This document shows, piece by piece, positions 21,591-53,461 of a stretch of DNA of 64,000 nucleotides (position 1 is the stretch's first letter; each line of letters starts with the position of its first letter). Origin of the DNA: a virus (taxonomy: Duplodnaviria; Caudoviricetes). The position numbers and the translations under genes were made by a program. Location of the stretch: the IMG/VR virus record IMGVR_UViG_3300047551_002158. One strand, 5' to 3'. Below the pieces are notes generated by a model. It was not told the origin of the DNA. It searched no databases and was given only the letters and a program-made list of their open reading frames with translations.

Positions 21591-22025
21591 ATGAAAATGA
21601 CAAAAAAGTTTGACGATTTAAACCAAACATTCAATGTAGATTCGGAGATAGTTCCTGTCGATAATAAAACCCCCACTGAAGCGATAGAAAAAATTGCTTC
21701 AACTGTTGATGATATTAAAAAAGATTATGATTATACGAGAGGTAATTTATATTCTCTCATTGAAAAGGGGCAGGAAGCAATTAACGGAATTCTTGAACTT
21801 GCACAAGAAAGTGAAATGCCCCGGGCATATGAAGTTGCAGGACAACTCATTAAAAATGTTGCGGATGCAACTGACAAATTAATGGATCTTCAAAAGAAAC
21901 TTAAGGATATTGAAGAAGAAAAAGTAGGAAAGGGACCAACAACTGTCAACAATGCACTTTTTGTTGGTTCTACCGCAGAATTGGCAAAACTTTTAAAGCA
22001 GCAAGCACAAAATGAAAACATTTAA
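21591..22025 (+). CDS. gp16: Terminase small subunit gp16
   Basis: DYDYTRGNLYSLIEKGQEA, PRAYEVAGQLIK and NNALFVGSTAELAKLLK; an ATG at 21591/21597 is more plausible than the TTG at 21582. Confidence 0.92.
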   Translation: MKMTKKFDDLNQTFNVDSEIVPVDNKTPTEAIEKIASTVDDIKKDYDYTRGNLYSLIEKGQEAINGILELAQESEMPRAYEVAGQLIKNVADATDKLMDLQKKLKDIEEEKVGKGPTTVNNALFVGSTAELAKLLKQQAQNENI

Positions 22026-22167
22026 ACAGTTTCAAGAAGATTGGACTAATAAATATAAAAAGAGTATTGATTGCTCAAATCCAAAAGGATTCTCTCAACG
22101 TGCTCATTGTGCGGGGAGAAGAAAAAGAGCAAAAGGTGAGCAGACTAAATCAAAACCAGTTGAGTAA
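22012..22167 (+). CDS. 51-aa basic protein with capsid-targeting-like N-terminus (not in ORF track)
   Basis: MKTFKQFQEDWTNKYKKSIDCSNPKGFSQRAHCAGRRKRAKGEQTKSKPVE; its TAA overlaps the next ATG (TAATG). Confidence 0.7.
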   Translation: MKTFKQFQEDWTNKYKKSIDCSNPKGFSQRAHCAGRRKRAKGEQTKSKPVE

Positions 22168-23906
22168 TGCCCAAGATCAAGTCACATAAAACAGTTGAGC
22201 AAATTGCAAGGAAGCATCGTCTTGATGTTTCTTTCATACAAAAGCAACTTGATATGGGAGAACCTATTGAGCACGAGCATACTCAAGACCACGAACTTGC
22301 AAGAGATATTGCCCTTCAACATCTTGATGAAATTCCAGATTATTATACCCGCTTGAAAAAAATGGAAGCAGATGCTAAAAAGCATCATAAAAAATTTAAA
22401 GATGTGAAAGAAGGCAATTTGCATAAATGGTTTCAAAGTAAATCTAAAGATGGAAAACCAGGTTGGGTAAATGTTGTTACTGGTGGAACTTGTGCAAGTG
22501 ATGAACCAGGAGAAGGAGTTCCCAAATGCGTTTCTTCTGAAAAAAGAGCAAGTATGACCCCAGCAGAAAGACGTGCCGCTGCAAGAAGAAAAAAAGCAGC
22601 AGATCCTGCTCAACAACAAAAAACAGGTGCAGCAAAACCAACTTACGTTCCTACCGACGAACCAAAAAAGAAAATGAAAGAAGAAATGGACTTACAAGAA
22701 GTAAAAGACAAAAAAGGAAAGGGAAGTGGTAAGAAAGACGCCTGTTATCATAAAGTAAAGTCACGTTATGATGTTTGGCCAAGTGCATATGCATCTGGAG
22801 CACTTGTCAAATGCCGTAGAGTTGGCGCTGATAATTGGGGAACTAAATCGGAGGAAACTACGCACGAAGAGGAAAGATATTGCCCATTATGTGATAAAAG
22901 AGAAACAAGATCCCAATGTTCTTATGGAGAAAAAGCCTGGGATAAAGTTTCAGTTAAAGATGAAGAGTATTCAATGGCACGTTCCGAACTCTCCACAATT
23001 GAAGATGCGGTCAAGAGATTAAAAAATAAAGTCGGAAAAGGCGAAGGAAATCTTGAAGCGTGGGTACAATCAAAAATTACCAAAGCAGCGGATTATATCG
23101 ATACTGCAGCAGATTATATTGCGAGTGGAGAAATGGAAGAACAAAAAATTGTTGATAAAATTATGGATGAAATGAAATGCTGGACAGGCTACAAAAAGAA
23201 GGGAACTCAAAAATTATTTGGTAAAAAATATAATCGTTGCGTAAAGAAGGAAGATGTGACAATTGAAGACTTAGATGGCAATACATTTGCTGAAGTGATT
23301 GATATTATCAAACCAGAACCAATAAAAGGTTTTAAATCTCAAGTAACAGAGGCAACTCGTCTTCAAGCACAAACAGGTAATGTAATTGCAGTTACTCTTT
23401 CTTGGAGAGGAAAGTACTATTCTCTAAAAATGTTTTTCCCTCAAGTTAAAACACCATCTCGCAAAGAAATAAACGATGAAATTCAAAAGGTTTATCCAGG
23501 TTCTGTAGTTGTTTATCATTCAGTATCAGAAATTCAACCAGGACAACCACTAATTCAAATGTGTGGTCCTCAGGGAGGAAGCTCTGCAAAACCTGGTCCA
23601 TCAAACAATTATGTAAAGACAATGGGAGAAGAAGTTGAAGTTGATGAAGATTGGCAAAAAGTTAATCGTCAAGATAAAACGGATGGATTAAGTCAAAAAG
23701 CAGTCAATGCTTATCGCAGAGAAAATCCAGGTTCAAATCTTCAAACTGCAGTAACTGAAAAAAATCCATCGGGTAAAAGAGCACAAAGAAGAAAAAATTT
23801 TTGTAGTCGTATGACCGGAATGAAGAAAAGATTAACATCTGCAGAGACTGCAAGAGATCCAGATAGCAGAATTAACAAAGCACTTCGTCGTTGGAACTGT
23901 AACTAA
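22167..23906 (+). CDS. 579-aa multi-module basic protein (putative internal-head polyprotein)
   Basis: A string of short Lys/Arg/Cys-rich modules separated by E-rich linkers, located between gp16 and gp17. Confidence 0.8.
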   Translation: MPKIKSHKTVEQIARKHRLDVSFIQKQLDMGEPIEHEHTQDHELARDIALQHLDEIPDYYTRLKKMEADAKKHHKKFKDVKEGNLHKWFQSKSKDGKPGWVNVVTGGTCASDEPGEGVPKCVSSEKRASMTPAERRAAARRKKAADPAQQQKTGAAKPTYVPTDEPKKKMKEEMDLQEVKDKKGKGSGKKDACYHKVKSRYDVWPSAYASGALVKCRRVGADNWGTKSEETTHEEERYCPLCDKRETRSQCSYGEKAWDKVSVKDEEYSMARSELSTIEDAVKRLKNKVGKGEGNLEAWVQSKITKAADYIDTAADYIASGEMEEQKIVDKIMDEMKCWTGYKKKGTQKLFGKKYNRCVKKEDVTIEDLDGNTFAEVIDIIKPEPIKGFKSQVTEATRLQAQTGNVIAVTLSWRGKYYSLKMFFPQVKTPSRKEINDEIQKVYPGSVVVYHSVSEIQPGQPLIQMCGPQGGSSAKPGPSNNYVKTMGEEVEVDEDWQKVNRQDKTDGLSQKAVNAYRRENPGSNLQTAVTEKNPSGKRAQRRKNFCSRMTGMKKRLTSAETARDPDSRINKALRRWNCN

Positions 23907-23922
23907 TTAATAGGACTTTATT

Positions 23923-25805: not shown

Positions 25806-25891
25806 ATAATTGTTCACGTCCCATTTCCCTTATGTAAAGTATCTTTTTAATAAATAATTTTTAGATAAACTGAGACTTTACGGAGAAAAAC

Positions 25892-28750: not shown

Positions 28751-30439
28751 ATGGCAAAATTGTTTGGATTTTCTATTGATGACAATGAACCACTTTCTCC
28801 GGGGGTGGTCTCTCCAGTTCCTCCAAATAACGAGGACTCGACTGACCACTACCTGAGTAGTGGTTTTTTTGGTTCATATGTTGATATTGAAGGTGTCTAC
28901 AGAACAGAATTTGATTTAATCAAAAGATATCGTGAAATGGCACTTCATCCTGAGTGTGATAGTGCCATTGAAGATATTGTTAACGAAGCGATTGTATCGG
29001 ATACAAATGATACGCCAGTAGAAATTGAACTTTCAAATCTCAATGCCAGTGATGGTATTAAAAAGAAGATTAGACAAGAGTTTAGATATATTCTTTCATT
29101 ATTAGATTTCGATAAAAAATCTCACGAAATTTATAGGAATTGGTATGTTGATGGTAGATTATACTACCACAAAATAATCGATCTAAAGAACCCCCACGAA
29201 GGAATTCAAGAACTTCGTTATATCGATCCAATGAAAATGAGATATGTGAGGCAGCAAAAAAAGGATCCAAAAGACAAGTATAGATTATCGAATGTCAATT
29301 CAGATAATCCAATGGATTTTGAGTTTCCTCAAATTGAGGAATATTTTATTTACAGTCCCAAATTAACATATCCTACCGGCAATCCTTCATCTATGGGAGG
29401 GTCTCAGGGTATTAAGATGTCAAAGGACTCTATTACCTATTGCACATCTGGTCTTGTAGATAGAAATAAAGGATCAACACTTTCATATCTCCATAAAGCA
29501 ATTAAGTCTCTCAATCAGTTAAGAATGATTGAGGATTCTTTGGTCATCTATCGTCTCTCTCGTGCTCCAGAAAGAAGAATCTTCTATATTGACGTAGGTA
29601 ATCTTCCAAAAGTTAAGGCGGAACAATATCTCCGCGATGTTATGATGCGTTATCGCAATAAACTTGTATATGATGCAAATACTGGAGAGATTCGTGATGA
29701 TAAAAAATTCATGGCAATGCTTGAGGATTTTTGGCTTCCAAGAAGAGAAGGTGGAAGAGGAACAGAGATTTCCACACTTCCTGGTGGTCAAAATCTTGGC
29801 GAAATTACTGACATTGAGTATTTCAAGAAAAAACTCTATCGTTCGCTGAATGTGCCCCCATCAAGAATGGATGGAGAAGGTGGATTTAATCTTGGACGTT
29901 CATCCGAAATCTTAAGAGATGAAGTCAAGTTCAGTAAGTTTGTTGCTCGTTTGAGAAAGAGATTCTCATATATGTTCCACGATATGTTGAGAACTCAACT
30001 TATTCTCAAAAATATTATTACCCCACAAGATTGGGATATTATGGAAGAGCATATCCAATATGACTTCCTATATGATAATCATTTCGCAGAACTCAAGGAC
30101 GCAGAACTTCTAAACGAAAGACTGAATATGGTTCAGATTGCAGAACCATATGTTGGCAAATACTTCTCACAAGATTATGTGAGACGTAAAATTCTTCGTC
30201 AAACTGATGAAGAAATTATTGAGCAGGACAAACTCATTGAGAAAGAAATTAAAGATGGAATTATTCCTGATCCAAATGCAGCTGTTGATCCAATGACTGG
30301 AATGCCACTTCAACCAGGAATGGACCAAGGAACTTCTGGAATGGATTTGGGACAACCTGTTATGGAACCAGAAATTAATGCTTCCGCCACAGAACCATCA
30401 ACAAAAGCAGTTGAAATGCCCAAGGGTGGTGAGATATAA
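28751..30439 (+). CDS. gp20: Portal protein gp20
   Basis: YLHKAIKSLNQLRMIEDSLVIYRLSRAPERRIFYIDVGNLPK and EDFWLPRREGGRGTEI. Confidence 0.98.
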   Translation: MAKLFGFSIDDNEPLSPGVVSPVPPNNEDSTDHYLSSGFFGSYVDIEGVYRTEFDLIKRYREMALHPECDSAIEDIVNEAIVSDTNDTPVEIELSNLNASDGIKKKIRQEFRYILSLLDFDKKSHEIYRNWYVDGRLYYHKIIDLKNPHEGIQELRYIDPMKMRYVRQQKKDPKDKYRLSNVNSDNPMDFEFPQIEEYFIYSPKLTYPTGNPSSMGGSQGIKMSKDSITYCTSGLVDRNKGSTLSYLHKAIKSLNQLRMIEDSLVIYRLSRAPERRIFYIDVGNLPKVKAEQYLRDVMMRYRNKLVYDANTGEIRDDKKFMAMLEDFWLPRREGGRGTEISTLPGGQNLGEITDIEYFKKKLYRSLNVPPSRMDGEGGFNLGRSSEILRDEVKFSKFVARLRKRFSYMFHDMLRTQLILKNIITPQDWDIMEEHIQYDFLYDNHFAELKDAELLNERLNMVQIAEPYVGKYFSQDYVRRKILRQTDEEIIEQDKLIEKEIKDGIIPDPNAAVDPMTGMPLQPGMDQGTSGMDLGQPVMEPEINASATEPSTKAVEMPKGGEI

Positions 30440-30467
30440 ATAGAAGAAATTATTGAAAGGTATTAAA

Positions 30468-30629
30468 ATGGATGATCTTTTGGATATGATCGCTGCTGAT
30501 GAATCTCCATCACAAATCAGCGATAAAATTAAAGAACTACTTTTTGCAAAATCTGCGGAAAAAATTGATGAGTTTCGCCCAGTGGTTGCAAATTCATTGT
30601 TTAACAGAGAAACCGAAGAGGAAGAATGA
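30468..30629 (+). CDS. 53-aa acidic protein at the prohead-core (gp67-like) position (not in ORF track)
   Basis: MDDLLDMIAADESPSQISDKIKELLFAKSAEKIDEFRPVVANSLFNRETEEEE, preceded by TATAAATA at 30435-30442 and an AAGG RBS. The gp67 analogy is positional only. Confidence 0.7.
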   Translation: MDDLLDMIAADESPSQISDKIKELLFAKSAEKIDEFRPVVANSLFNRETEEEE

Positions 30630-30943
30630 AATCTTTTAAAGAATTCCTTTCAGAATCAGTAAATATTTCTGGAGATTTTAACGGAAATCTCTACATTAAT
30701 TCCCAATCAGAACCAAAACAGGTTGGGGAGGAGTATGTTGCTGATATTATTTGGGAAGGAAATTTTTATAGATTAGAGCTAATTTCAGAACTCGGAATTC
30801 CTTCAAAAAGAGATTTGGGTGAGCAATTGCAAAATCAGTATCCAGGAGCAGTTGTTCATCAAATCTATCCAATTACAGAAAAAAATTGCAATATTAAAAC
30901 CGTAAAAAGATATCACCCATCAAAATTGGAATGGATTGATTAA
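30626..30943 (+). CDS. 105-aa hypothetical with capsid-targeting-like N-terminus
   Basis: Starts MKSFKEFLSE; the C-terminal domain resembles a module of the 579-aa protein. Confidence 0.75.
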   Translation: MKSFKEFLSESVNISGDFNGNLYINSQSEPKQVGEEYVADIIWEGNFYRLELISELGIPSKRDLGEQLQNQYPGAVVHQIYPITEKNCNIKTVKRYHPSKLEWID

Positions 30944-32319: not shown

Positions 32320-32865
32320 ATGGCTCATAGACCAATAGGTGCTGGTATTTCATTAACAACAGGTGCAGCATCAGCGATGACAACATCCTTTACTGCACAG
32401 TCAAATGTGGTAAGAGTTGTTGCCGTTAGTGCTGGAGCATTTGTTGCAATTGGAACCAATCCAACAGCTACAACCGCAGATTATTATGTTCCTGCTGGCG
32501 GAACTGCAACTCTCGCTATCACAAAGGCATCAAATAGAGTTGTTGGAGTAACTACCGGAACGACGACAATCATTGATTGCCCAGAAGGAACTCAAGCACC
32601 TTTTGGTGTTGGTGATTTTGTAACTCTTTCAGGTTCACAATATCACAATTTCACTCACGCTGAGGTTGTTTCAGTAAATACAACTTCAAATGTTAATGGA
32701 TACTACCAAAAGAGGTTTACTGTAAATTATAACTCAAGTGGAATATTAACAGCATTCAGTTCTCCAGATGCATCGGTTTCACTATCATATAGGTTAGCGG
32801 CAAGAACTGAAGGTAGTGCTGGTACATTATATGCACAACAAGTACAAATCTCAGGACAAGCATAA
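32320..32865 (+). CDS. Conserved hypothetical (probable virion) protein upstream of gp21
   Basis: 181 aa, Thr/Ala/Gly-rich, preceded by TAAATA boxes; its stop overlaps the gp21 ATG. Confidence 0.7.
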   Translation: MAHRPIGAGISLTTGAASAMTTSFTAQSNVVRVVAVSAGAFVAIGTNPTATTADYYVPAGGTATLAITKASNRVVGVTTGTTTIIDCPEGTQAPFGVGDFVTLSGSQYHNFTHAEVVSVNTTSNVNGYYQKRFTVNYNSSGILTAFSSPDASVSLSYRLAARTEGSAGTLYAQQVQISGQA

Positions 32866-33512
32866 TGAAACTTATCAGAGAAGAGATCGAAAAAGTAGAA
32901 GTTATTACCGAAGGAAAAGGTAGTAACGCAAAACTTTATATCAAAGGACCATTTCTTCAAGCAGAATGCGTCAATAGAAATGGAAGGCTTTATCCTCTTT
33001 CAATTATGGAGAGAGAAGTAAAGCGTTATACTGAGAGTTATGTAAACAAAGGTCGTGCTCTGGGAGAACTTGGTCATCCAGATGGACCTACTGTTAATCT
33101 GGATAGAGTTTCTCATAAGATTGTTGAACTTCATCAAGAAGGAAATAACTTTATTGGTAAAGCACAGATCTTATCTACTCCAATGGGTAAGATTGCAGAA
33201 TCTCTTCTTAAGGATGGAGTTTCTCTCGGTGTTTCTTCTCGTGGCATTGGTTCTCTGAGAGAAAACCAAAAAGGTTACAGAGAAGTTGGCGAAGACTTTA
33301 TGCTTGCAACTGCTGCTGATATTGTAGCAGATCCTTCAGCACCCGATGCTTTTGTTCAGGGAATTATGGAAGGAGTTGAATGGGTTTGGAATAATGGTAT
33401 TCTTGAGCAAAAAGTTTCAAAATTTGAGAAGAGAGTTAATACTTTAGTTGATCAAGGTATTCTCGAAGAATACAAGTTATCTTTATTCAATGAGTTCTTA
33501 AACTCATTGTAA
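32865..33512 (+). CDS. gp21: Prohead protease gp21
   Basis: NRNGRLYP, ALGELGHP, LGVSSRGIGS and DIVADPSAPDAFV. Confidence 0.97.
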   Translation: MKLIREEIEKVEVITEGKGSNAKLYIKGPFLQAECVNRNGRLYPLSIMEREVKRYTESYVNKGRALGELGHPDGPTVNLDRVSHKIVELHQEGNNFIGKAQILSTPMGKIAESLLKDGVSLGVSSRGIGSLRENQKGYREVGEDFMLATAADIVADPSAPDAFVQGIMEGVEWVWNNGILEQKVSKFEKRVNTLVDQGILEEYKLSLFNEFLNSL

Positions 33513-33568: not shown

Positions 33569-34717
33569 ATGTCTCGTGGAGATTTACAAGAAATGGAAGT
33601 AGGCACAAAGCAATCCAAAACCGCTGTTAATGCCAATGCAAAGGCAGCGGAAGCGATGCCACATTTATCCGGTTCAACACCCGGTCAAACAGCGGGATGG
33701 GAAGATCTTGGTGGTCCTGATCCTTCCAACTATCGCTCGACTGATGATTCAGCAAAACTTAAGACACCTGGTGCAACCCTCAAGCAAGTTAAGGATGTTG
33801 TAAATAAAGGTGCTAAGCCTGCTGAAGCAATGGCTGGCGTTAAGGAAGATGAAGAATTTGAGTATGATGAAGACGAAGAACTCGTAGAAGCCGCTAAGGA
33901 AGAGGAAGAAGAGGAAGAAGAAGAGGAGGGTGGTAAGAAGAAAGGCAAGAAAGAAGAGGATGAGGAAGAAGACGAAGATGAAATGAAAGAAGAGTTTGAC
34001 ATCGAAGAAGATGTTAACGCTCTTCTTGCTGGAGAAGAACTCTCTGAAGAGTTCCAAGAAAAAGCAAGAACTATTTTCGAAGCCGCTCTTCGCTCAAAGG
34101 TTTCTGATATTCAAGAAGCTCTTGAGGAGCAGTATGCACAAGCACTTGCAGAAGAAGTCGAAGAAATTAAGACTGAACTTGCAGAGCGTGTAGATGCATA
34201 CCTTGAGTATGTTGCTGGTGAGTGGATGGAAGAAAATGCACTCACCATTGAGCAAGGTCTTAAGACCGAAATGACCGAATCATTCCTACAAGGAATGAAG
34301 GGTCTTTTTGAAGAACATTATGTATCAATCCCTGAAGATAAATATGATGTGCTTGAGAGCATGGTAGAAAAACTTGATGAAATGGAGACAAAACTCAACG
34401 AGCAAATTGAGAAAAACGTTTCACTCAACAAGCGTCTCGCAGAGTCGGTTGCTGATGGAATCTTTGAACAAGTCGCTGATGGTCTTGCAGACACTCAGAA
34501 AGACAAGCTCGCTTCACTTGCCGAAAGTGTTGAGTTTGAAAGTGAAGAAGAATATCGTGAAAAACTGGAGACTTTAAAGGAATCATATTTTCCTTCAAGA
34601 GTAGTTTCTCCATCTGCAAGAACTGAAACTCTGTCAGAAGGTCTGGATGCTACCCCAGAAGCAATTTCTGGTTCAATGGCAACTTATCTGAAGACTCTTT
34701 CAGCATTCAGCAAATAA
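33569..34717 (+). CDS. gp22: Prohead core scaffold gp22
   Basis: Acidic, coiled-coil-like; FQEKARTIFEAAL, YLEYVAGEWMEEN and GLFEEHYVSIPEDKYDVLE; between gp21 and gp23. Confidence 0.93.
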   Translation: MSRGDLQEMEVGTKQSKTAVNANAKAAEAMPHLSGSTPGQTAGWEDLGGPDPSNYRSTDDSAKLKTPGATLKQVKDVVNKGAKPAEAMAGVKEDEEFEYDEDEELVEAAKEEEEEEEEEEGGKKKGKKEEDEEEDEDEMKEEFDIEEDVNALLAGEELSEEFQEKARTIFEAALRSKVSDIQEALEEQYAQALAEEVEEIKTELAERVDAYLEYVAGEWMEENALTIEQGLKTEMTESFLQGMKGLFEEHYVSIPEDKYDVLESMVEKLDEMETKLNEQIEKNVSLNKRLAESVADGIFEQVADGLADTQKDKLASLAESVEFESEEEYREKLETLKESYFPSRVVSPSARTETLSEGLDATPEAISGSMATYLKTLSAFSK

Positions 34718-34774: not shown

Positions 34775-36196
34775 ATGTTCCATTCAGAACAATTGCAGGA
34801 AAAGTGGGCACCTCTCCTCAACTATGAGGGTCTTGATTCAATCAAAGATTCACATCGTAGAGCTGTAACCGCTGTCCTGCTCGAAAACCAAGAAAAATTC
34901 TTAAGAGAGCAATCTTCTTTCGAGACCTCAGGTTCGTTCCTGACCGAAGCTCCAACAATGACCACCAACTCCGGCGCTAATGCTGGTTTCGGAGGTCTTG
35001 CTTCAGCTAGCGGTCCTACCGCAGGTTTCGACCCCGTTCTGATCTCACTGATCAGACGTTCAATGCCTAACCTGATCGCCTATGATATTGCAGGCGTTCA
35101 ACCAATGAGTGGTCCTACTGGACTCATCTTCGCAATGCGTTCACGCTACAACAACCAGAGTGGTGCAGAAACCTTCTACAACGAAGTAGATTCTTCCTGG
35201 TCAGGTCAACCATTCGGTCGTGATAATTCGGATGGTTTCACCGATACCGCTGCTGGTATGGGTACTACTGCTCAGAGTGGTAGCAATCCATCAGTTCTGA
35301 ATCCAGTTGGCACTGCCGCTTCAACTGGTTATAACGTTGGTCAAGGTATGCGTACCGATCAGGCAGAACTGCTTGATAGTGGTGCTGATGCATTCAACCA
35401 GATGGCATTCTCGATCGAGAAGGTCACCGTTACTGCTAAGAGCCGTGCTCTGAAGGCAGAATACAGCCTTGAGCTTGCTCAGGACCTGAAGGCAATCCAT
35501 GGTCTGAACGCTGAAGCGGAACTCGCAAACATTCTCTCAACTGAGATTCTTGCCGAGATCAACCGCGAAGTTATCAGAACCATCTATAAGGTTGCTGAAC
35601 AGGGTGCTGTACAGAACGTTGCAACTCCTGGTATCTTCGACCTCGACGTTGACTCCAATGGTCGTTGGTCAGTTGAGAAGTTCAAGGGTCTTCTGTTCCA
35701 GATTGAGCGTGATGCTAACGCTATCGCTCAGAGAACTCGTCGTGGAAAGGGCAACATCATCCTTTGCTCCGCTGACGTTGCTTCAGCACTGACAATGGCT
35801 GGTGTTCTTGATTACACCCCTGCTCTGAACGCTAACCTCCAGGTAGACGATACCGGCAACACCTTTGCTGGTACTCTGATGGGCAAATTCCGCGTCTACA
35901 TTGACCCATATGCTGCTAACCTGACTTCAGGTAATGCAACTCCAGGTAACCAGTACTATGTTGTTGGTTATAAGGGTTCTTCACCTTATGACGCTGGACT
36001 CTTCTATTGTCCTTATGTTCCTCTCCAAATGGTACGTGCCGTTGGCGAGAACAGCTTCCAGCCCAAGATCGGATTTAAGACCCGTTATGGAATGGTTGCA
36101 AACCCATTCGCTGAGGGTACTACTCAGGGTCTCGGTGCTCTTACGATCAATGCTAACCGCTACTATCGTAGAGTTGCTGTTAAGAACCTTATGTGA
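34775..36196 (+). CDS. gp23: Major capsid protein gp23
   Basis: GVQPMSGPTGLIFAMRSRY, KSRALKAEYSLELAQDLKAIHGL and FYCPYVPL; the maturation-site analogue SFLTE|A is present. Confidence 0.99.
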   Translation: MFHSEQLQEKWAPLLNYEGLDSIKDSHRRAVTAVLLENQEKFLREQSSFETSGSFLTEAPTMTTNSGANAGFGGLASASGPTAGFDPVLISLIRRSMPNLIAYDIAGVQPMSGPTGLIFAMRSRYNNQSGAETFYNEVDSSWSGQPFGRDNSDGFTDTAAGMGTTAQSGSNPSVLNPVGTAASTGYNVGQGMRTDQAELLDSGADAFNQMAFSIEKVTVTAKSRALKAEYSLELAQDLKAIHGLNAEAELANILSTEILAEINREVIRTIYKVAEQGAVQNVATPGIFDLDVDSNGRWSVEKFKGLLFQIERDANAIAQRTRRGKGNIILCSADVASALTMAGVLDYTPALNANLQVDDTGNTFAGTLMGKFRVYIDPYAANLTSGNATPGNQYYVVGYKGSSPYDAGLFYCPYVPLQMVRAVGENSFQPKIGFKTRYGMVANPFAEGTTQGLGALTINANRYYRRVAVKNLM

Positions 36197-43640: not shown

Positions 43641-45757
43641 TTGAGCACAAGAAGGTTGAGACCGCTTGCTTTAACGTTCATACAAGGGTTTTGACCCTTC
43701 CGATGTGGGAGCGTGCTTCTGGGACCGTATACGATATGCTGGTGGGTCACGAAGTTGGACACGCACTCTTCACTCCCGACGAGGATTGGACTGAAACTGT
43801 AAAGGTTCCTCCCCAGTTTGTGAATGTGGTTGAGGATGCCCGTATTGAGAAGTTGATGAAGCGCAAGTATGCTGGACTTGCTAAAACTTTCTTTGGTGGT
43901 TATAAGGAACTGAACGAGCAAGATTTCTTCCAACTTGAGGGTGAGGATGTTTCTACCTTCAATCTTGCTGACCGTGCAAACCTTTATTTCAAGGTAGGGA
44001 ATTTTGTTTCTCTTGAGTTTACTCCTGAAGAGAAAGAGATTGTTGACCTGATTGCTGCTTCTGAAACTTTTGCAGATGTTCTGATTGCCGCAGAAGAACT
44101 TTATAAGCACTGCAAAAAAGAAAAGGAACAAGAAAAGGTTGATGAGATTGATGCTCAACAATCTCAAGGTTCTTCTACTTCTGCTACCGAAACTCAAGCA
44201 GATGAAGGTGAAGGGAATACTGAAGAGAAAGGTGATACGAATGGTCAGTTGGATGAAAATCAACCTTCCGATGGTGATAATCAACAATCTGTTCCTTCTG
44301 GTCCTGAAGAGGATAATGAACCTGAAATCAAGACCGTAGATAATCTTGAGGATAAAATCCGTCAACTTGCAAGCAAGGATGGATATGATAATGTTTATGT
44401 GGAAGTTCCGAAAGTAAATCTGGATACCGTTATTGGTAAGAACTCTGAAGTTCATCGGGAGATTACTTCTGCTTTCAATCAGCAACAGAAATCTTATAAT
44501 GAAATGCATAACACCACTTTAGTTGACTTGTTCAAGGAAGCAGATACTTCTTTCCGACAGTTTAAAGTTTCTGCTCAAAAAGAAGTTAACTATCTGGTGA
44601 AAGAGTTTGAGTGCCGTAAGGCTGCAGATGCTTATTCCCGTGCTTCTACTGCCCGCACAGGAGTTCTTGATACTGCTCGTCTGCATTCTTATAAGTTCAG
44701 TGAGGATTTGTTCAAGAAAGTTACTGTGCTTCCTGACGGTAAAAATCACGGACTGATTTTCATTCTGGATTGGTCAGGTTCTATGGCTAATGTCCTTCTG
44801 GATACTTGCAAGCAACTCTTTAATCTTGTTTGGTTCTGCAAGAAAGTTTCCATTCCTTTTGAGGTTTATGCTTTCACAAATGAGTGGCGTCGTTGCACTT
44901 TTGATTATGAAACTAATCAGCGTGTAGCAGCAGACCGTACTCCTCATTATGAGAAGAAAGAAGGTGTGCTTGCGATTGATGAGGACTTTGCTCTGATGAA
45001 TATTCTTACCAGTAAAGTTTCTGGTAACGAACTGGAAAAGCAACTGATGAATATCTGGCGTCTTGCTGTGTATTTCGGAGATACTTATCACACTCCTTAT
45101 ACCTGTCCTGGCCGTTTGTATTTGTCAGGAACTCCTCTGAATGAGAGTTTGATTGCTCTGCATCAAATTCTTCCGAAGTTTCAGAGTGAGAATAAATTGC
45201 AGAAAGTTCAGTGTGTGATTTTGACTGATGGTGAAGCAAATGTTCTTCCCTATCACCAGGAAATCAAGCGTGCTTGGGATAAAGAACCTTTCATCGGTAC
45301 TCGTGGTATTGGTTCTAATGCTTTTCTGCGAGATAGGAAACTTGGAACAACTTACAACTTTGATTGTATGTATTATCAGGGATATCATAAGTTCACTGAT
45401 GTAATGCTTCGCAATCTTCGTGATAAGTTCCCCTATACCAACTTCATCGGTATTCGTGTTCTTTCCAGTCGTGATGCTCACCGTTTCATCAATCTGTATC
45501 ATTCTGCTTCCGATGCTGACTATAAGCAGTACAACAAAATTCAGGATGATTGGAAGAAACTGAAGAGTTTTACGATTACCAATTCTGGTTATCACGCTTA
45601 CTTTGGTCTCTCTTCTTCTGCTCTGTCTCAAGATGCAGAGTTTGATGTCTCTGATACTGCTACAAAAGCACAAATCAAATCTGCTTTTGTGAAGTCCCTG
45701 AAGACAAAGAAACTCAACAAAAAGGTTCTTGGGGAGTTCATTTCCCTTGTTGCATAA
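43577..45757 (+). CDS. CobT-like protein: N-terminal HExxH metallopeptidase-like domain plus vWA domain
   Basis: HEVGH motif, acidic linker and MIDAS LDWSGS...TP...LTDGE. Confidence 0.85.
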   Translation: MAVNHEIKSQLAKLLATEDLVVEHKKVETACFNVHTRVLTLPMWERASGTVYDMLVGHEVGHALFTPDEDWTETVKVPPQFVNVVEDARIEKLMKRKYAGLAKTFFGGYKELNEQDFFQLEGEDVSTFNLADRANLYFKVGNFVSLEFTPEEKEIVDLIAASETFADVLIAAEELYKHCKKEKEQEKVDEIDAQQSQGSSTSATETQADEGEGNTEEKGDTNGQLDENQPSDGDNQQSVPSGPEEDNEPEIKTVDNLEDKIRQLASKDGYDNVYVEVPKVNLDTVIGKNSEVHREITSAFNQQQKSYNEMHNTTLVDLFKEADTSFRQFKVSAQKEVNYLVKEFECRKAADAYSRASTARTGVLDTARLHSYKFSEDLFKKVTVLPDGKNHGLIFILDWSGSMANVLLDTCKQLFNLVWFCKKVSIPFEVYAFTNEWRRCTFDYETNQRVAADRTPHYEKKEGVLAIDEDFALMNILTSKVSGNELEKQLMNIWRLAVYFGDTYHTPYTCPGRLYLSGTPLNESLIALHQILPKFQSENKLQKVQCVILTDGEANVLPYHQEIKRAWDKEPFIGTRGIGSNAFLRDRKLGTTYNFDCMYYQGYHKFTDVMLRNLRDKFPYTNFIGIRVLSSRDAHRFINLYHSASDADYKQYNKIQDDWKKLKSFTITNSGYHAYFGLSSSALSQDAEFDVSDTATKAQIKSAFVKSLKTKKLNKKVLGEFISLVA

Positions 45758-45783
45758 ATACCTAAAAAGTATTTTTGCGTAAA

Positions 45784-46656
45784 ATGATAACTTATCAAGA
45801 ATTTATTACCGAAATCAAAAGGTATCGTCTCCGTCGTTCTGGCGGAGACCCTTTTACGCATTATAGTGATGGTAAGCAAAAACCACTGGATTTATCTGCT
45901 ATTCACGCTGCAGGTAATGCTGATGCGAAAGCTTCTGTAGGATATAAAGAAAAACGCTTAAAGCAATACAGAAGACAAGAAACTGTGAGAAGGATGGATG
46001 CTGCTGGTAAGAAACTTGGATTGCCTGAAGAGAATGTTCAAGAGTTATTCATTACAAGAAAATCTCCTGAAGAGAGAGCAGACGCAAAAAGAAAGAAACA
46101 AGTAGAAACACTTATTCGTTTAATGAAGCACGCAAAGGACCCTTCTGCTGATGTTGCTAAAACCAAAAAGGAAGATTATGATTTAAGTGAAACTTCCCTT
46201 ACTCGTGTAATGAGTAAGTCAAAAAAAGGTGGTATGGCGATTATGTCTGCTCAAAGAGGAGATAAATCAAAGGCAGAAAACAAAGAACGCTCAAAGCAAC
46301 TTGAGCGTGATGTAAGAGGTGCTGGACTTCCTGGACCTACAAAAGTTGCTGGTAGATACACTGAAAATCCAGGAACACCTGATGAGAAAAAGGTAGGAGA
46401 GAAATCTCATATTATTACTCCAGGTAAAAAAGGCAAAAGGAAGTTTAAGAAAGCGATTGAAAAACTTGGTAAAAAATACAATCAAGATTCAGTTTTAATC
46501 CAACGCAAACCTGGTGGAAGTTCAACTCTTAAAGGAACTTCCAAAACATCTTGGCCTGGTCAAGGTAAAAATGTTAAAATAGGTTCTATGAAACCAGGAA
46601 GAACTGGCGAATTTGATACTAAAGTTAAAAACAAAACATTTACTGTTGAGCATTAA
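45784..46656 (+). CDS. Basic late protein with T4 capsid-targeting-like N-terminus
   Basis: The ATG at 45784 gives MITYQEFITE; late promoter ATAAATA at 45754-45760; C-terminal AIMSAQRG...EN..R...G.Y.E...KKYNQDSVL domain. Confidence 0.8.
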   Translation: MITYQEFITEIKRYRLRRSGGDPFTHYSDGKQKPLDLSAIHAAGNADAKASVGYKEKRLKQYRRQETVRRMDAAGKKLGLPEENVQELFITRKSPEERADAKRKKQVETLIRLMKHAKDPSADVAKTKKEDYDLSETSLTRVMSKSKKGGMAIMSAQRGDKSKAENKERSKQLERDVRGAGLPGPTKVAGRYTENPGTPDEKKVGEKSHIITPGKKGKRKFKKAIEKLGKKYNQDSVLIQRKPGGSSTLKGTSKTSWPGQGKNVKIGSMKPGRTGEFDTKVKNKTFTVEH

Positions 46657-46658: not shown

Positions 46659-46841
46659 ATGAAAAAGTTCCCATTTGAGCACATTGTAAAATACGACACT
46701 CAAGAAGTTTGGGTGAAGTGTGATAGCAGTATTACTGCTATGGGACTTCCTACTCTTGTAAATCAATATTATCCTGGTTATAAAGCAAAAGTTGCAACCG
46801 AAGAATATTTGGACAAGTTACGGAACCAGTTGCTGAACTGA
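46659..46841 (+). CDS. Small hypothetical protein
   Basis: 60-aa ORF directly after the previous gene. Confidence 0.65.
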   Translation: MKKFPFEHIVKYDTQEVWVKCDSSITAMGLPTLVNQYYPGYKAKVATEEYLDKLRNQLLN

Positions 46842-46908
46842 CCACTGGGGGTCCTTGAGACCCCTTTTTTGTCCTATAATAACTTCAGTGAAACAAACCA
46901 CTCACATT

Positions 46909-48015
46909 ATGTCTCGCACTAAAATGACCAACGATCAAATCCTTGAAGATCTCAAAAACACTTTTGGAAAAGAATTCACTGCTGCCGATGTTCGCGGATA
47001 CTGTGCTGCTAAAAGCATCTCCTATCAAACTGTTACCAAGCGACTGGAGCAGTTTAAAGTTGGTCGTGGTAAGTGGAACCTGGAAGTGACGCAACGAAAA
47101 GTGGAAGAAATCGAACGTTCCTTTAATTCCGTTGCTGTTCTTCCTGAAGTACATCAAAACCTCATTCCTGATAAAGATGATACCTTCGTCAAGTTTGGTA
47201 ATTTTAACGACGTTAAAAAAATTATTCAGTCCAATCTTTTTTATCCTACGTTTATTACGGGTCTTTCGGGTAACGGTAAAACGTTCTCGGTGGAGCAAGC
47301 GTGTGCTCAACTTAAGCGTGAACTCATCCGTGTGAATATTACGATTGAAACTGATGAGGATGATCTGATCGGTGGTTTCCGTCTTGTGAATGGTGAAACC
47401 GCCTGGCACAACGGTCCCGTGATTGAGGCACTTGAGCGTGGTGCTATCCTGCTTCTGGATGAGATTGACCTTGCCTCTAACAAGATCCTCTGTCTTCAGT
47501 CTGTGCTTGAGGGTAAGGGTGTCTTCCTGAAGAAAATCGGTAAGTTCGTCAAACCTGCCGCTGGTTTCAACGTGATCGCCACCGCAAACACCAAGGGCAA
47601 GGGTTCTGATGATGGACGTTTCATCGGCACCAACGTGCTCAACGAAGCGTTCCTTGAGCGGTTCCCTGTGACCTTTGAGCAGTCCTATCCCGCTCCTTCT
47701 GTGGAACAGAAGATCCTTGAGGGTGTTGCTCTGGATCTTGGTGTGGAAGACCGCGACTTCTGCAAGCGTCTGGTGGACTGGGGTGATATCATCCGCAAGA
47801 CCTTCTACGATGGTGGTATTGAGGAAATCATCAGCACCCGCCGCCTGGTTCATATCATCCGTGCCTACAGCATCTTCCAAGACAAGGCAAAGGCAATCCA
47901 AGTGTGCGTCAATCGTTTCGACGATGAAACCAAACAGGCATTCCTGGAACTGTATGATAAAGTTGATGTTGACTTTGTGATGCCTACTGAGGTTGACCAA
48001 CAAACCCAATCCTGA
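46909..48015 (+). CDS. cobS: CobS-like MoxR-family AAA+ ATPase
   Basis: Walker A GLSGNGKT, Walker B LLLDEID and ATANTKG...LNEAFLERF. The ATG at 46909 lies downstream of TATAAT 46875-46880. Confidence 0.9.
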   Translation: MSRTKMTNDQILEDLKNTFGKEFTAADVRGYCAAKSISYQTVTKRLEQFKVGRGKWNLEVTQRKVEEIERSFNSVAVLPEVHQNLIPDKDDTFVKFGNFNDVKKIIQSNLFYPTFITGLSGNGKTFSVEQACAQLKRELIRVNITIETDEDDLIGGFRLVNGETAWHNGPVIEALERGAILLLDEIDLASNKILCLQSVLEGKGVFLKKIGKFVKPAAGFNVIATANTKGKGSDDGRFIGTNVLNEAFLERFPVTFEQSYPAPSVEQKILEGVALDLGVEDRDFCKRLVDWGDIIRKTFYDGGIEEIISTRRLVHIIRAYSIFQDKAKAIQVCVNRFDDETKQAFLELYDKVDVDFVMPTEVDQQTQS

Positions 48016-49493: not shown

Positions 49494-49495
49494 TT

Positions 49496-50008: not shown

Positions 50009-50010
50009 TT

Positions 50011-51836: not shown

Positions 51837-52158
51837 GGATCCTTCTTTAGTGAAGGAATATGCACCATTTATTATTAATCGTTGCTTATCTGGTCACATT
51901 GATTGTGTTCTTTTTGCGAATGAGATGAATATAAATTCTCATTTGGATAAAGATATGCAATATTCTTTTTTTCTAAATACTATAAGAAAAAGGAAGAGAT
52001 TTTCTCCCTGGCTCCGTAAAGATAAAGTTCAAGACTTAGAATGTGTAAAGCGTTATTATGGTTATAGTAACGAGAAGGCATCCCAAGCACTGAAGATTTT
52101 GTCAAAAGAGCAAATCAACTTTATTAAACAACGACTTGAAACTGGCGGAACAAAATGA
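51778..52158 (+). CDS. gp62: Clamp loader small subunit gp62
   Basis: MELKDWLNSIN, YAPFIINRCLS and VKRYYGYSNEKA; ATG at 51778. Confidence 0.92.
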   Translation: MELKDWLNSINQTKQNLMDEDPSLVKEYAPFIINRCLSGHIDCVLFANEMNINSHLDKDMQYSFFLNTIRKRKRFSPWLRKDKVQDLECVKRYYGYSNEKASQALKILSKEQINFIKQRLETGGTK

Positions 52159-52595
52159 CTACTCAAACTATTGAACCTCAAGTAAATTGGTCGCAGGACC
52201 AAATGGTTGAAGTTATTCTCAACGAACCTGATGATTTTCTGAAAGTTCGTGAAACTTTGACCCGTATCGGAGTTGCATCCAGAAAGGAGAAAAAACTCTA
52301 TCAATCTTGCCATATTCTTCATAAGCAAGGTAGATATTATATTGTGCATTTTAAAGAGTTGTTTGCTCTCGATGGGAAACACGCAAATCTTACGGTAAAT
52401 GATGTTCAGCGTCGTAATCGTATTGTTCGTTTGCTTGCAGACTGGGGACTTATTACTGTAGTAAAACCAGATTCTGTATCTGATATTGCACCTCTAAATC
52501 AGATTAAGGTACTTTCTTATAAGGATAAGGGAGACTGGATTCTTGAGCAAAAGTATAATATTGGTAAGAAGGGCAAAACTCAAGAAGATGTTTAA
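52155..52595 (+). CDS. regA: Translational repressor RegA
   Basis: DDFLKVRETLTRIGVAS, LYQSCHILHKQGRYYIVHFKELF. Confidence 0.97.
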   Translation: MTTQTIEPQVNWSQDQMVEVILNEPDDFLKVRETLTRIGVASRKEKKLYQSCHILHKQGRYYIVHFKELFALDGKHANLTVNDVQRRNRIVRLLADWGLITVVKPDSVSDIAPLNQIKVLSYKDKGDWILEQKYNIGKKGKTQEDV

Positions 52596-52674
52596 TGCAG
52601 TTTGTTTATTTCTTTTAGTTATCGCTGCGTATACAAATCTTTATTTAAATTTAAAATCTAGAAAAAGACGATAA
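52588..52674 (+). CDS. 28-aa putative membrane microprotein (not in ORF track)
   Basis: MFNAVCLFLLVIAAYTNLYLNLKSRKRR; hydrophobic stretch with a basic tail; overlaps the regA stop. Confidence 0.35.
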   Translation: MFNAVCLFLLVIAAYTNLYLNLKSRKRR

Positions 52675-52681
52675 ATAAGTA

Positions 52682-52757
52682 TGAGACCTTCGTGCGGTCT
52701 CTACAAAAGTCGGAACACCCTAAAAAGAGGTTCGGTTTTGCCGATACCTCTTTTTTT
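52682..52757 (+). ncRNA. Structured intergenic RNA candidate (two hairpins plus U-tract) upstream of hsp20
   Basis: TAAATA at 52672, then GAGACC-ttcgtgc-GGTCTC and AAAAAGAGG..tcgg-tttt-g-ccga..CCTCTTTTTTT. Confidence 0.5.
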
Positions 52758-52763
52758 CGTTTC

Positions 52764-52772
52764 TGGTATAAT
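52764..52772 (+). promoter_or_regulatory. Extended -10 promoter for hsp20
   Basis: TG-n-TATAAT. Confidence 0.55.
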
Positions 52773-52872
52773 TATTAATGATGAGGTGAGGTTCTCTGAA
52801 CCCCTCATTCACTAAAGCGGAGTCTTAGGATCCGTAATGTTAAACAACACTCGCTTTTTAAGGAGAACTAAA

Positions 52873-53310
52873 ATGTACACAACTCTTGCAAAGTACAACG
52901 CTGGAAATATTGAAAAGTTTTTAACAGACTTGGAAAAAAATTTTATTGGAGCAGATGAGTGGCTTAGCCGTTTTGGAACGGTACACGAATCTTCTACCAA
53001 TTACCCACCATATAATTTAATTAAGGAAAGTTCGACAGAGTTTACTCTGGAAATTGCTCTTGCTGGATATAAAAGAGAAGATATTGAAGTATCTTCTGAA
53101 TGGAATAAACTTTTTGTAGAGTGTAAGAAAGCACCTACGGAATATGAATATATGCATAATGGGATTGCTCGTAGAGCATTTACTCGCACTTGGACATTAT
53201 CCGATGACGTAGTTGTTGGTGATATTTCTTTTGTTGATGGATTGCTCACTATTAAACTAAATAGAGTTATTCCAGAACATCAAAAGAAAAAGGTATATGA
53301 AATCGTTTGA
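52873..53310 (+). CDS. hsp20: Small heat-shock protein Hsp20
   Basis: NYPPYNLIK, LEIALAGY, GIARRAFTRTWTL and DGLLTIKLNRVIPE; AAGGAG RBS before the ATG at 52873. Confidence 0.95.
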   Translation: MYTTLAKYNAGNIEKFLTDLEKNFIGADEWLSRFGTVHESSTNYPPYNLIKESSTEFTLEIALAGYKREDIEVSSEWNKLFVECKKAPTEYEYMHNGIARRAFTRTWTLSDDVVVGDISFVDGLLTIKLNRVIPEHQKKKVYEIV

Positions 53311-53461
53311 TGAGTTCAAATCAATCGCATATAAAGGAGCAGCCCCTCATACTGTATATTCCCGAGAAAAATCTAAAAAGATTCCAAAAGGGGAAGCAGT
53401 TCCTGTAAGAAGCCGTTCGAGTGCTGGAGGAAATGGAGATTCTGGTGATGGTGGAGAATAA
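53297..53461 (+). CDS. 54-aa protein with MKSFDEF N-terminus (not in ORF track)
   Basis: MKSFDEFKSIAYKGAAPHTVYSREKSKKIPKGEAVPVRSRSSAGGNGDSGDGGE; overlaps the hsp20 end. Confidence 0.55.
   Translation: MKSFDEFKSIAYKGAAPHTVYSREKSKKIPKGEAVPVRSRSSAGGNGDSGDGGE

What the first reader, a model, noticed from the sequence alone, without database searches (positions are those of the whole stretch)
22012..53461. Dispersed family of late genes with T4 capsid-targeting-sequence (CTS)-like N-termini: a candidate capsid-cargo system
Seen: MKTFKQFQE (22012), MKSFKEFLSE (30626), MITYQEFITE (45784) and MKSFDEF (53297). Two lie in late morphogenesis operons, and the 45784 gene has its own ATAAATA late promoter although it sits among early genes. 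Established: T4 internal proteins enter the prohead via a 10-residue CTS (IPIII, MKTYQEFIAE as I recall it) that gp21 removes after (I/L)-x-E; this phage's gp23 keeps the analogous SFLTE|A site. The 45784 N-terminus matches 8 of 10 positions. Inference: these are packaged, processed internal proteins, possibly ejected into the host with the DNA (in T4, IPI is an anti-restriction protein). Their bodies are unrelated to the T4 IPs, so they may be an uncharacterised set of injected effectors.
Basis: partly seen in the sequence, partly recalled or inferred. Interest (0 to 1): 0.8.

Follow-up and report, generated by a model that had tools for sequence, protein, structure and literature searches.

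The report
Head-cargo address tags in a cyanophage
Four unrelated genes of this marine T4-like cyanophage start with the short tag that phage T4 uses to load proteins into its head, and one of them is an enzyme that destroys S-adenosylmethionine, so the phage probably injects a ready-made anti-restriction enzyme together with its DNA.

Summary
ORFs at 22012, 30626, 45784 and 53297 begin MK(T/S)F..F or MITYQEF. These match T4 IPI (MKTFKEF) and IPII/IPIII (MKTYQEFIAE), which I read from the T4 record. About 0.0005 such starts are expected by chance.

The window is a T4-like cyanomyovirus with gp21 protease, gp22 scaffold and a gp23 that keeps T4's GSFLTE|A cleavage site.

The 45784 protein consists of the tag, a 126-residue basic spacer, a second L-x-E site and a T3-type SAM lyase. 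The lyase call rests on Pfam, a profile hit to 7OCK, an AF2 model matching 8BB1, and conserved SAM-contacting residues. Of its 120 closest metagenomic homologues, 113 keep the tag, and 119 of 119 with the core motif keep (L/I/V)-x-E directly before the enzyme. All five genes examined have ATAAATA about 25-30 nt upstream. The S-CREM2 homologue was found in virions by mass spectrometry, as were all five tag-bearing S-CREM2 proteins (p = 6e-4).

The other three are weaker. Orthologues of the 30626 protein are missing from two virion proteomes, so it may be a degraded core protein. The 22012 and 53297 proteins lack the (I/L)-x-E cleavage motif.

The mechanism is known and the cargo is new. This scan noted the same thing earlier on other genomes.

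The parts
45754..45760 (+). ATAAATA late-promoter-like motif, ending 23 nt before the SAM-lyase ATG and overlapping the stop codon of the upstream CobT-like gene
   Evidence: The same motif lies 24-32 nt upstream of the SAM-lyase genes of S-CREM2 (TATAAATA), S-H34, AG-345-E15 and P-TIM68. In the window ATAAATA occurs 28 times on the + strand and 3 times on the - strand.
45784..45813 (+). CTS of the 290-aa protein: MITYQEFITE, with I-T-E at positions 8-10
   Evidence: It matches T4 IPII/IPIII MKTYQEFIAE at 8 of 10 positions. 113 of the 120 closest homologues start M[KRI][TS][FY]x[EQ..]F.
45814..46191 (+). Basic spacer (residues 11-136, pI 9.9) ending in a second protease-type site, D-L-S-E|T, at residues 133-136
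   Evidence: In homologues the spacer varies from 6 to 328 residues and is built from interchangeable basic modules. In 119 of 119 homologues the three residues before the core T/S-S-L-T-R are (L/I/V)-x-E.
46192..46656 (+). T3-type SAM lyase domain (residues 137-290) and stop codon
   Evidence: Pfam PF23780, E 5.6e-14, 52.7 bits against a cut-off of 28. A family profile hits T3 SAM lyase 7OCK at E 2.7e-4 and Svi3-3 6ZM9 at E 0.06. The AF2 model has pLDDT 89.9, and the top 7 Foldseek hits are all SAM lyases, the best being 8BB1_E at E 2.9e-6 and TM 0.71. G190, Y192, E206, Q234 and D235 align with Svi3-3 G56, Y58, E69, Q104 and E105.
46659..46841 (+). 60-aa ORF co-transcribed with the SAM lyase, carrying a '..YPGYK..' motif
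   Evidence: Similar small ORFs (S-CREM2 gp7 and the S-H34 ORF at L002:2800-2940) sit next to the SAM lyase in those phages. The likeness was judged by eye only.
46847..46875 (+). Intrinsic-terminator-like hairpin plus T-run that closes the promoter-lyase-ORF60 unit
30626..30943 (+). 105-aa acidic protein (pI 5.2) with CTS MKSFKEFLSE, L-S-E at positions 8-10 and four further (I/L)-x-E sites
   Evidence: It belongs to phrog_1742. There are 1125 homologues, and all 120 best read M-K-S-(F/Y)-x-x-F-(I/L/M/V)-x-E. Its body shares a module with residues 402-448 of the 22167 protein. Orthologues SSCSM1_30 and SSZBM1_191 are not in the published virion proteomes.
30435..30442 (+). TATAAATA at the end of gene 20, heading the gp67-like / 105-aa protein / structural-protein operon
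30468..30629 (+). gp67-like prohead core protein: helical, with an acidic tail
   Evidence: It resembles T4 gp67, S-CREM2 ORF142 and SSCSM1_37 by position and composition. No search was run.
22012..22167 (+). 51-aa basic protein (pI 10.1) starting MKTFKQFQED, with no (I/L)-x-E, lying between gp16 and the 579-aa protein (TAATG overlap)
   Evidence: Orthologues occur in Bellamy (MKSFKQFQES), SynMITS9220M01 and S-SM2. S-CREM2 ORF136 (MQTFSMFFSED) is in the same position after gp16 and is a virion protein by MS.
22167..23906 (+). 579-aa modular protein (phrog_727/3477; T4-GC119 family, which holds S-SM2_109), with no tag of its own
   Evidence: T4-GC119 was detected in S-SM1 virions, and the homologue SSCSM1_29 is annotated as a virion protein. 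P-TIM68 has a version with MMKSFIDFSE fused to these modules.
53297..53461 (+). 54-aa basic protein starting MKSFDEFKSIAY, with a Gly/Asp-rich tail and no E at position 10, overlapping the end of hsp20
   Evidence: There are 151 metagenomic homologues with conserved MKSF(D/K)EF(K/Q/E)xIAY. tblastn found no hit in isolated phages.
32865..33512 (+). gp21 prohead protease, the enzyme expected to remove the tags
   Evidence: phrog_207, E 4.5e-80. The GELGHP and GVSSRG motifs are shared with T4 gp21.
33569..34717 (+). gp22 scaffold/core protein with 18 (I/L)-x-E sites
   Evidence: phrog_237, E 2e-110; site count.
34931..34951 (+). gp23 maturation site G-S-F-L-T-E|A (E58), identical to T4 gp23 GSFLTE|A

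Best explanation
This T4-like cyanomyovirus uses the same capsid targeting sequence as coliphage T4. An N-terminal M-K-(T/S)-(F/Y)-x-(E/Q)-F, ideally followed by (I/L)-x-E, attaches a late-made protein to the gp22/gp21 scaffolding core, so that the protein is enclosed when gp23 builds the prohead. The gp21 protease then cuts after the Glu. The clearest cargo is the 45784 protein. It has its own late-promoter motif and a terminator. It is probably cut after residue 10 and again after L-S-E(136), releasing a basic T3-type SAM lyase that stays in the DNA-filled head. On the next infection it would enter the cell with the DNA and break down S-adenosylmethionine before any phage gene is expressed. 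That would blunt SAM-dependent defences such as type I/III restriction and BREX-like systems. The 105-aa protein at 30626 carries a complete tag and is probably also taken into the prohead, but it may be degraded there like a core protein. The 51-aa and 54-aa basic proteins carry the targeting half of the tag without the cutting site, and may be packaged uncut. Shown here: the motifs, their conservation, the SAM-lyase fold and residues, the promoter motif, and virion detection of homologues in other phages. Inferred: targeting, cleavage, ejection and the anti-defence role in this phage.
For: (1) The four tags are real and far beyond chance, and they equal the T4 IPI/IPII/IPIII tags read from the T4 genome. 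(2) The machinery is present: gp21, gp22, a gp67-like ORF, and gp23 with T4's own GSFLTE|A site. (3) In S-CREM2, a loose tag pattern hits five annotated genes: ORF6 SAM hydrolase, ORF13, ORF14 kinase, ORF136 and ORF154 cytidylyltransferase. All five are among the 52 of 221 proteins found in CsCl-purified virions (hypergeometric p = 6e-4). (4) The cyanophage-core NMNAT/cytidylyltransferase (T4-GC190), reported in virions of S-SM1, S-SCSM1, S-CREM2 and S-SZBM1, carries the tag in all four genomes where I read its start: S-SCSM1, S-CREM2, S-SM2 and P-TIM68. (5) In the SAM-lyase family, 113 of 120 close homologues keep the tag and 119 of 119 keep (L/I/V)-x-E directly before the enzyme core, while the spacer varies from 6 to 328 residues. 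Distant members reduce to tag + core, for example MKTFNEFLKE|SSLSR. (6) ATAAATA lies 24-32 nt upstream of all 5 SAM-lyase genes examined. T3's SAM lyase, as I recall, is an early gene, so a late-made one makes most sense if it is stored for the next infection. (7) The enzyme domain is a SAM lyase by Pfam, PDB profile and fold, and keeps the residues that contact SAM.
Against: There is no virion, N-terminal or transcript data for this phage. The S-CREM2 homologue that was seen in virions has a different layout (tag + enzyme + long C-terminal tail), and a 52-protein 'virion' list may include sticky late proteins. Orthologues of the 105-aa protein were not detected in two virion proteomes, although the protein has good tryptic peptides. 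Two of the four tags lack the cleavage motif. ATAAATA precedes about a quarter of + strand genes here (15 of 57), so on its own it is weak evidence. In the distant SAM-lyase relatives the tag-like start could be an inherited part of the fold rather than a separable signal.
Confidence: 0.72

Rival explanations
1. The 105-aa protein (30626) is not delivered cargo. It is an accessory prohead-core protein, functionally like T4 gp67/gp68: it enters the core through the tag and is chopped up and lost during maturation.
For: It lies between gene 20 and gene 21, next to a gp67-like ORF. It is acidic and has five (I/L)-x-E sites in 105 residues. Its orthologues are missing from the S-SCSM1 and S-SZBM1 virion proteomes, while their neighbours are present.
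Against: In S-CAM9 and S-SZBM1 the orthologue is not next to genes 20/21 but next to the modular T4-GC119-type protein and a structural protein. Small proteins are easily missed by shotgun MS. Its body is a module also found inside a protein family that is in virions.
Confidence: 0.4
2. The SAM lyase works only inside the producing cell late in infection and is not packaged. The conserved N-terminus is simply part of this protein family.
For: Distant family members start with a tag-like sequence joined directly to the conserved core. The consensus of alignment A1 begins MKxFxxxLxE.
Against: The same tag heads unrelated proteins here and in other cyanophages, and heads T4 IPs. Spacers of 6-328 residues are inserted between tag and core, yet a cleavage-type site is always rebuilt at the junction. 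The S-CREM2 homologue gave 19 peptides from purified virions.
Confidence: 0.1
3. The shared start reflects selection on the mRNA (an A/T-rich, unstructured start for efficient translation) or some other N-terminal function, not capsid targeting.
For: The codons are A/T-rich (ATGAAAACATTTAAA...). The phage has 35% G+C.
Against: Conservation is at the protein level with synonymous and conservative changes: F/Y at position 4, invariant F7, I/L at 8, E at 10. Most other genes in the window lack it. It associates with virion proteins in S-CREM2.
Confidence: 0.05
4. Chance resemblance of four N-termini to the T4 tag.
For: None beyond the shortness of the motif.
Against: About 0.0005 expected against 4 seen. 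There is roughly 450-fold positional enrichment at residue 2. The tag is conserved in hundreds of homologues.
Confidence: 0.01

Closest known systems
Phage T4 internal proteins IPI, IPII, IPIII with their capsid targeting sequence (Mullaney & Black 1996, as reviewed in PMC9026906 and PMC3012670)
   Same: The N-terminal tag is the same: T4 has MKTYQEFIAE and MKTFKEF..., this phage has MITYQEFITE and MK(T/S)F(K/D)(E/Q)F. The gp21 protease and gp22 core are the same, and so is the gp23 cleavage site. In both, bodies of unrelated sequence share only the tag. IPI is an anti-restriction protein delivered with the DNA.
   Different: The bodies are unrelated to the T4 IPs. One is an enzyme (SAM lyase) preceded by a long modular spacer and a second cleavage-type site. 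Two tags lack the cleavage motif. The host is a marine cyanobacterium. Nothing has been shown experimentally for this phage.
Phage T3 gp0.3 SAM lyase (PDB 7OCK, 8BB1) and Svi3-3 (PDB 6ZM9)
   Same: The fold is the same (Foldseek E 2.9e-6, TM 0.71) and the Gly/Tyr/Glu/Gln(Asp) SAM-contacting residues are conserved. The presumed role is depletion of SAM to disable host defences.
   Different: Sequence identity is about 15%. T3's enzyme is, from my own knowledge, an early gene made after entry. This one has a late-promoter motif and a head-loading tag, which implies delivery as protein.
S-CREM2 ORF6 'SAM hydrolase', detected in virions (PMC10665884)
   Same: The enzyme domain is homologous (47% identity over the domain). 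It has a tag-like start (MKDFDSFLEE) and TATAAATA upstream. The authors suggested it is carried in the capsid and enters the host.
   Different: In S-CREM2 the tag abuts the enzyme and a 240-residue tail follows. In the window a 126-residue spacer precedes the enzyme and there is no tail. The paper does not mention a targeting sequence, propeptide or cleavage.
T4 Alt (packaged ADP-ribosyltransferase) and the phage P1 Dar proteins
   Same: These are enzymes or anti-restriction proteins loaded into the head and injected with the DNA.
   Different: They are different proteins, and in P1 the loading signals differ. They are listed only as functional analogues (PMC9026906; PMC12810830 was seen by title and abstract only).

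Membership tests
T4-type CTS-bearing internal head proteins | N-terminal tag with an aromatic residue at position 4 and Phe at position 7 (the residues that matter for targeting in T4 IPIII) | tested here: met
   All four ORFs have F/Y4 and F7. The T4 tags were read from NC_000866. The residue roles are taken from the review PMC9026906.
T4-type CTS-bearing internal head proteins | gp21 processing motif (I/L)-x-E at positions 8-10 | tested here: inconclusive
   Met for 30626 (L-S-E) and 45784 (I-T-E, plus L-S-E at 134-136). Not met for 22012 (Q-E-D) or 53297 (K-S-I), and the homologues of 53297 all have Ile at position 10. The review says Asp at position 10 blocks processing but not targeting.
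T4-type CTS-bearing internal head proteins | The same genome encodes the gp21 protease and gp22 core, and gp23 has the T4-type maturation site | tested here: met
   phrog_207, phrog_237 and phrog_138. GSFLTE|A is present in both phages.
T4-type CTS-bearing internal head proteins | Late expression | tested here: inconclusive
   ATAAATA is directly upstream of 45784 and at the head of the operons holding 30626 and 22012, and it is conserved upstream of SAM-lyase genes in four other phages. No transcript data were available, and the motif precedes 15 of 57 genes.
T4-type CTS-bearing internal head proteins | The protein is physically present in the head, with the tag removed | not testable with these tools
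   Indirect evidence only. S-CREM2 ORF6, 13, 14, 136 and 154 and the NMNAT-like proteins were found in virions. Orthologues of 30626 were not found. No N-terminal peptide data exist.
SAM lyase (Pfam PF23780; T3 gp0.3 / Svi3-3) | Family profile match above the curated threshold | tested here: met
   52.7 bits against a cut-off of 28, E 5.6e-14, residues 153-276.
SAM lyase (Pfam PF23780; T3 gp0.3 / Svi3-3) | Fold of the solved SAM lyases | tested here: met
   The AF2 model has pLDDT 89.9. Foldseek ranks 1-7 are all T3 SAM lyase or Svi3-3.
SAM lyase (Pfam PF23780; T3 gp0.3 / Svi3-3) | Conserved Gly56, Tyr58, Glu69, Gln104 (Svi3-3 numbering) | tested here: met
   G190, Y192, E206 and Q234 (with D235 for E105), by the profile alignment. 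The residue roles come from PMC7877911. These columns are invariant or nearly invariant in alignment A1.
SAM lyase (Pfam PF23780; T3 gp0.3 / Svi3-3) | Cleaves SAM to MTA and homoserine lactone | not testable with these tools
   This needs an enzyme assay.

The most novel reading that the evidence does not exclude
T4-like cyanophages as a group use the T4 head-loading tag to stock their capsids with working enzymes: SAM lyase, an NMNAT-like nucleotidyltransferase, a protein kinase and others. These are built from a common kit of tag, interchangeable basic spacer modules, a protease site and an enzyme. Counter-defence and host takeover in the ocean's most abundant phototrophs would then begin at DNA entry, before any phage gene is read. 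The tag could then be used to list the injected proteome of any such phage from sequence alone.
Probability: 0.45. Interest if true: 0.7.

Novelty: new member of a known kind. Interest (0 to 1): 0.55.

Why it matters
T4-like cyanophages are among the most abundant viruses in the sea, and why non-structural enzymes keep turning up in their virion proteomes has gone unexplained. A recognisable loading tag with a protease site gives a simple rule, readable from sequence, for which proteins are carried in the head. It points to a pre-made SAM lyase as a first-strike measure against SAM-dependent defences of Synechococcus and Prochlorococcus. It also shows that the T4 tag is conserved across a very deep split in the T4 superfamily. 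That makes the tag useful for annotation and for loading foreign proteins into cyanophage heads. The mechanism itself is not new, and the S-CREM2 authors had already guessed that the enzyme is carried in the capsid.

Tried and rejected
- There is no whole genome behind the window, so genome-wide counts were not possible.
- phmmer of the enzyme domain alone against PDB found nothing. A family profile was needed.
- The single-sequence AF2 model of the full 290-aa protein was poor, at pLDDT 54. The model built from the alignment was used instead.
- tblastn of the 54-aa protein against isolated phages found nothing. Metagenomic proteins did match.
- Pfam and PHROGs gave nothing for the 51-aa and 54-aa proteins.
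- I expected the abundant 87-aa S-SZBM1_195 virion protein to be the counterpart of the 51-aa ORF. It is not: it has no tag and a different sequence.
- Literature searches linking 'capsid targeting sequence' or 'capsid targeting' with cyanophage or Synechococcus returned only a T4 review and an SPN3US paper. Petrov 2010 does not mention it. Subscription-only papers such as Weigele 2007 and Clokie 2008 could not be searched.
- The sigma-70-type promoter scan around 45784 was no better than shuffles, with 5 sites against 3.6 expected.
- BLASTP between the 51-aa ORF and the 579-aa neighbour was not significant, E 0.07.
- No complex prediction was run. The T4 binding partner of the tag is not defined well enough to choose a pair.


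Full report
**What the window is.** The gene 22-23 region is about 73-77% identical in DNA to Synechococcus myoviruses of the Kyanoviridae. G+C is 35%. The + strand carries, in order:
- gp15 (20584) and gp16 (21582)
- a 51-aa ORF (22012) and a 579-aa modular protein (22167)
- gp17, gp18, gp19 and gp20 (28751)
- a gp67-like ORF (30468) and a 105-aa ORF (30626)
- a structural protein (30946) and DUF7243 (32320)
- gp21 protease (32865), gp22 (33569), gp23 (34775) and gp3
- uvsY, uvsW, gp47 and gp46
- a CobT-like protein (43577), the 290-aa ORF (45784) and CobS
- further on, Hsp20 (52837), a 54-aa ORF (53297) and a NUMOD3 homing endonuclease.

**The observation.** The four N-termini are exactly as reported. 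A scan of all start codons on both strands finds no other real ORF with the motif. From the window's amino-acid composition the motif is expected 0.0005 times among about 57 genes. A relaxed form occurs four times at residue 2 and three times in the remaining ~20,000 residues.

I read the T4 tags from the T4 genome rather than from memory:
- ipII and ipIII begin MKTYQEFIAE|A.
- ipI begins MKTFKEF and is cut after ...ITE (19 residues).
- gp23 has GSFLTE|AEIGG.

The 45784 start matches IPIII at 8 of 10 positions. The other three are closest to IPI. The window's gp23 has GSFLTE|APT. ATAAATA lies at 45754-45760.

**The 45784 protein is a tagged SAM lyase.**
- Pfam places residues 153-276 in the S-AdoMet lyase family, above threshold.
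- A profile of 62 family members hits T3 SAM lyase (7OCK, E 2.7e-4) and Svi3-3 (6ZM9, E 0.06).
- An AF2 model of residues 127-290 (pLDDT 89.9) has solved SAM lyases as its seven best Foldseek matches.
- The residues that Guo et al. describe as conserved SAM contacts (G56, Y58, E69, Q104, plus E105) align with G190, Y192, E206, Q234 and D235.

**Architecture of the family.** The protein search found 488 relatives. Of the best 120, 113 begin M-(K/R/I)-(T/S)-(F/Y)-x-x-F, many of them nearly identical to T4's tag. All 119 that contain the core T/S-S-L-T-R have (L/I/V)-x-E as the three residues just before it. The distance from tag to core runs from 6 to 328 residues. The seven exceptions look like truncated gene calls.

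The family is therefore built as tag, variable basic spacer, protease-type site, enzyme. In the window this reads MITYQEFITE | 126-residue spacer ...DLSE | TSLTRV.... Representatives at 30-45% identity often have the tag joined directly to the core.

**Promoter and transcription unit.** ATAAATA or TATAAATA lies 24-32 nt upstream of the start in the window, S-CREM2, S-H34, AG-345-E15 and P-TIM68. In the window the unit also holds a 60-aa ORF and ends at a terminator-like hairpin before CobS.

**Independent evidence from published virion proteomes.** S-CREM2 ORF6, a homologue of the window's enzyme that begins MKDFDSFLEE, gave 19 peptides from CsCl-purified virions. The authors suggested it is carried in the capsid, but they never mention a tag or cleavage.

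I fetched the whole S-CREM2 genome and scanned it with a loose pattern. The five annotated genes that match are ORF6, ORF13, ORF14 (kinase), ORF136 (just after gp16) and ORF154 (cytidylyltransferase). All five are among the 52 of 221 proteins in the virion list, p = 6e-4. ORF15 and ORF12 are also in the list and carry looser versions.

The NMNAT/cytidylyltransferase (T4-GC190) is a cyanophage core gene. It has been detected in virions of S-SM1, S-SCSM1, S-CREM2 and S-SZBM1. It begins with the tag in S-SCSM1, S-CREM2, S-SM2 and P-TIM68, and in S-SM2 and P-TIM68 ATAAATA lies just upstream.

**The other three ORFs.**
- **30626 (105 aa).** This protein has a complete tag, conserved in all 120 best of 1125 homologues. 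It is acidic and has five (I/L)-x-E sites. Its orthologues are not flagged in the S-SCSM1 virion proteome and do not appear in the S-SZBM1 table. A degraded core protein is a serious alternative. Its body shares a module with the 579-aa neighbour of the 22012 ORF.
- **The 579-aa protein (22167).** It shows the same conserved modules as S-SM2_109, which the GenBank record places in T4-GC119. That family was detected in S-SM1 virions, and its S-SCSM1 homologue is annotated as a virion protein.
- **22012 (51 aa).** It is basic and conserved in Bellamy, S-SM2 and others. It occupies the position of S-CREM2's virion protein ORF136. Positions 8-10 read Q-E-D.
- **53297 (54 aa).** It has 151 conserved metagenomic homologues with Ile, not Glu, at position 10.

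According to the T4 review, targeting depends mainly on residues 4 and 7 and cutting on residues 8 and 10. These two short proteins may therefore be loaded but not cut. This is inference.

**Comparison with what is known.** The mechanism proposed is T4's own. The new points are that the tag is conserved almost letter for letter in cyanophages, that it explains the 'non-structural' enzymes in their virion proteomes, and that one cargo is a T3-type SAM lyase behind a modular spacer. I found no paper in the searchable library that links the tag with cyanophages. Subscription journals were not covered.

This scan has reported the same idea on other genomes (e1-5338360, e1-5406615, e1-5403527, e1-946627, e1-5365655). 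I reached my reading before opening those notes, and they agree with it.

**Verdict.** It is a new member of a known kind, of moderate interest.

Noticed in passing
L022:367-531 (- strand), T4 gene 61.1: T4 gp61.1, a 54-aa hypothetical protein, begins MKTFKEFIKE. This is a complete CTS-like tag with I-K-E, yet the record does not annotate it as an internal protein. It was one of only four hits to the tag pattern in the T4 genome; the other three are ipI, ipII and ipIII.
   Followed up: partly
L013:41626-41835 (S-SCSM1 gene 93): A 69-aa protein annotated as a virion protein ends with ...KKKRTFKEFLEYIE, so a tag-like motif sits at the C-terminus. Its N-terminal module (MPAVSKAQQRF...) also opens S-SZBM1_194.
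   Followed up: no
window 46659-46841; L001:2852-2998; L002:2800-2940: A small ORF with a '..YPGYK..' motif sits next to the SAM-lyase gene in the window (downstream) and in S-CREM2 and S-H34 (upstream). The motif recalls the 'YPGAVV' module of the 105-aa protein and of the 579-aa protein. This was judged by eye only.
   Followed up: no
window 46855-46924: The listed TTG start of the CobS/MoxR ATPase (46855) lies inside the terminator-like hairpin. In-frame ATGs at 46909 and 46924 are more likely starts.
   Followed up: partly
L004:7704-10313 (S-CREM2 ORF12, annotated Cas9-like, virion protein): Residues 17-27 read ...KPLRFASFMAEA, a tag-like motif just inside the annotated start. The true start or a processing site may lie there.
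   Followed up: no
window, whole: ATAAATA occurs 28 times on the + strand and 3 times on the - strand, mostly just upstream of late genes (gp15, gp18, gp19, gp20, DUF7243, gp22). This is consistent with a T4-type late promoter in this phage.
   Followed up: partly
window 53567-54145: A NUMOD3-motif homing-endonuclease-like gene, preceded by TATAAATA at 53535, is inserted just after the 54-aa tagged ORF.
   Followed up: no
window 32320-32865 (DUF7243); L013:2116-2669; L025:2989-3252: The DUF7243 protein between the structural gene and gp21 looks related, by eye, to small Thr/Val-rich virion proteins: SSCSM1_38/39, and S-SZBM1_195, which is the third most abundant protein by emPAI in that virion.
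   Followed up: no
L009:2195-2623 (S-SM2_108); L010:1979-3100 (P-TIM68 gene after gp23): The tag and the small basic modules shuffle. S-SM2_108 has MKTLKQFLKE at its start and a second, internal RKTFEEFRES in front of the module that forms the window's 51-aa ORF. P-TIM68 fuses MMKSFIDFSE to modules of the 579-aa family.
   Followed up: partly
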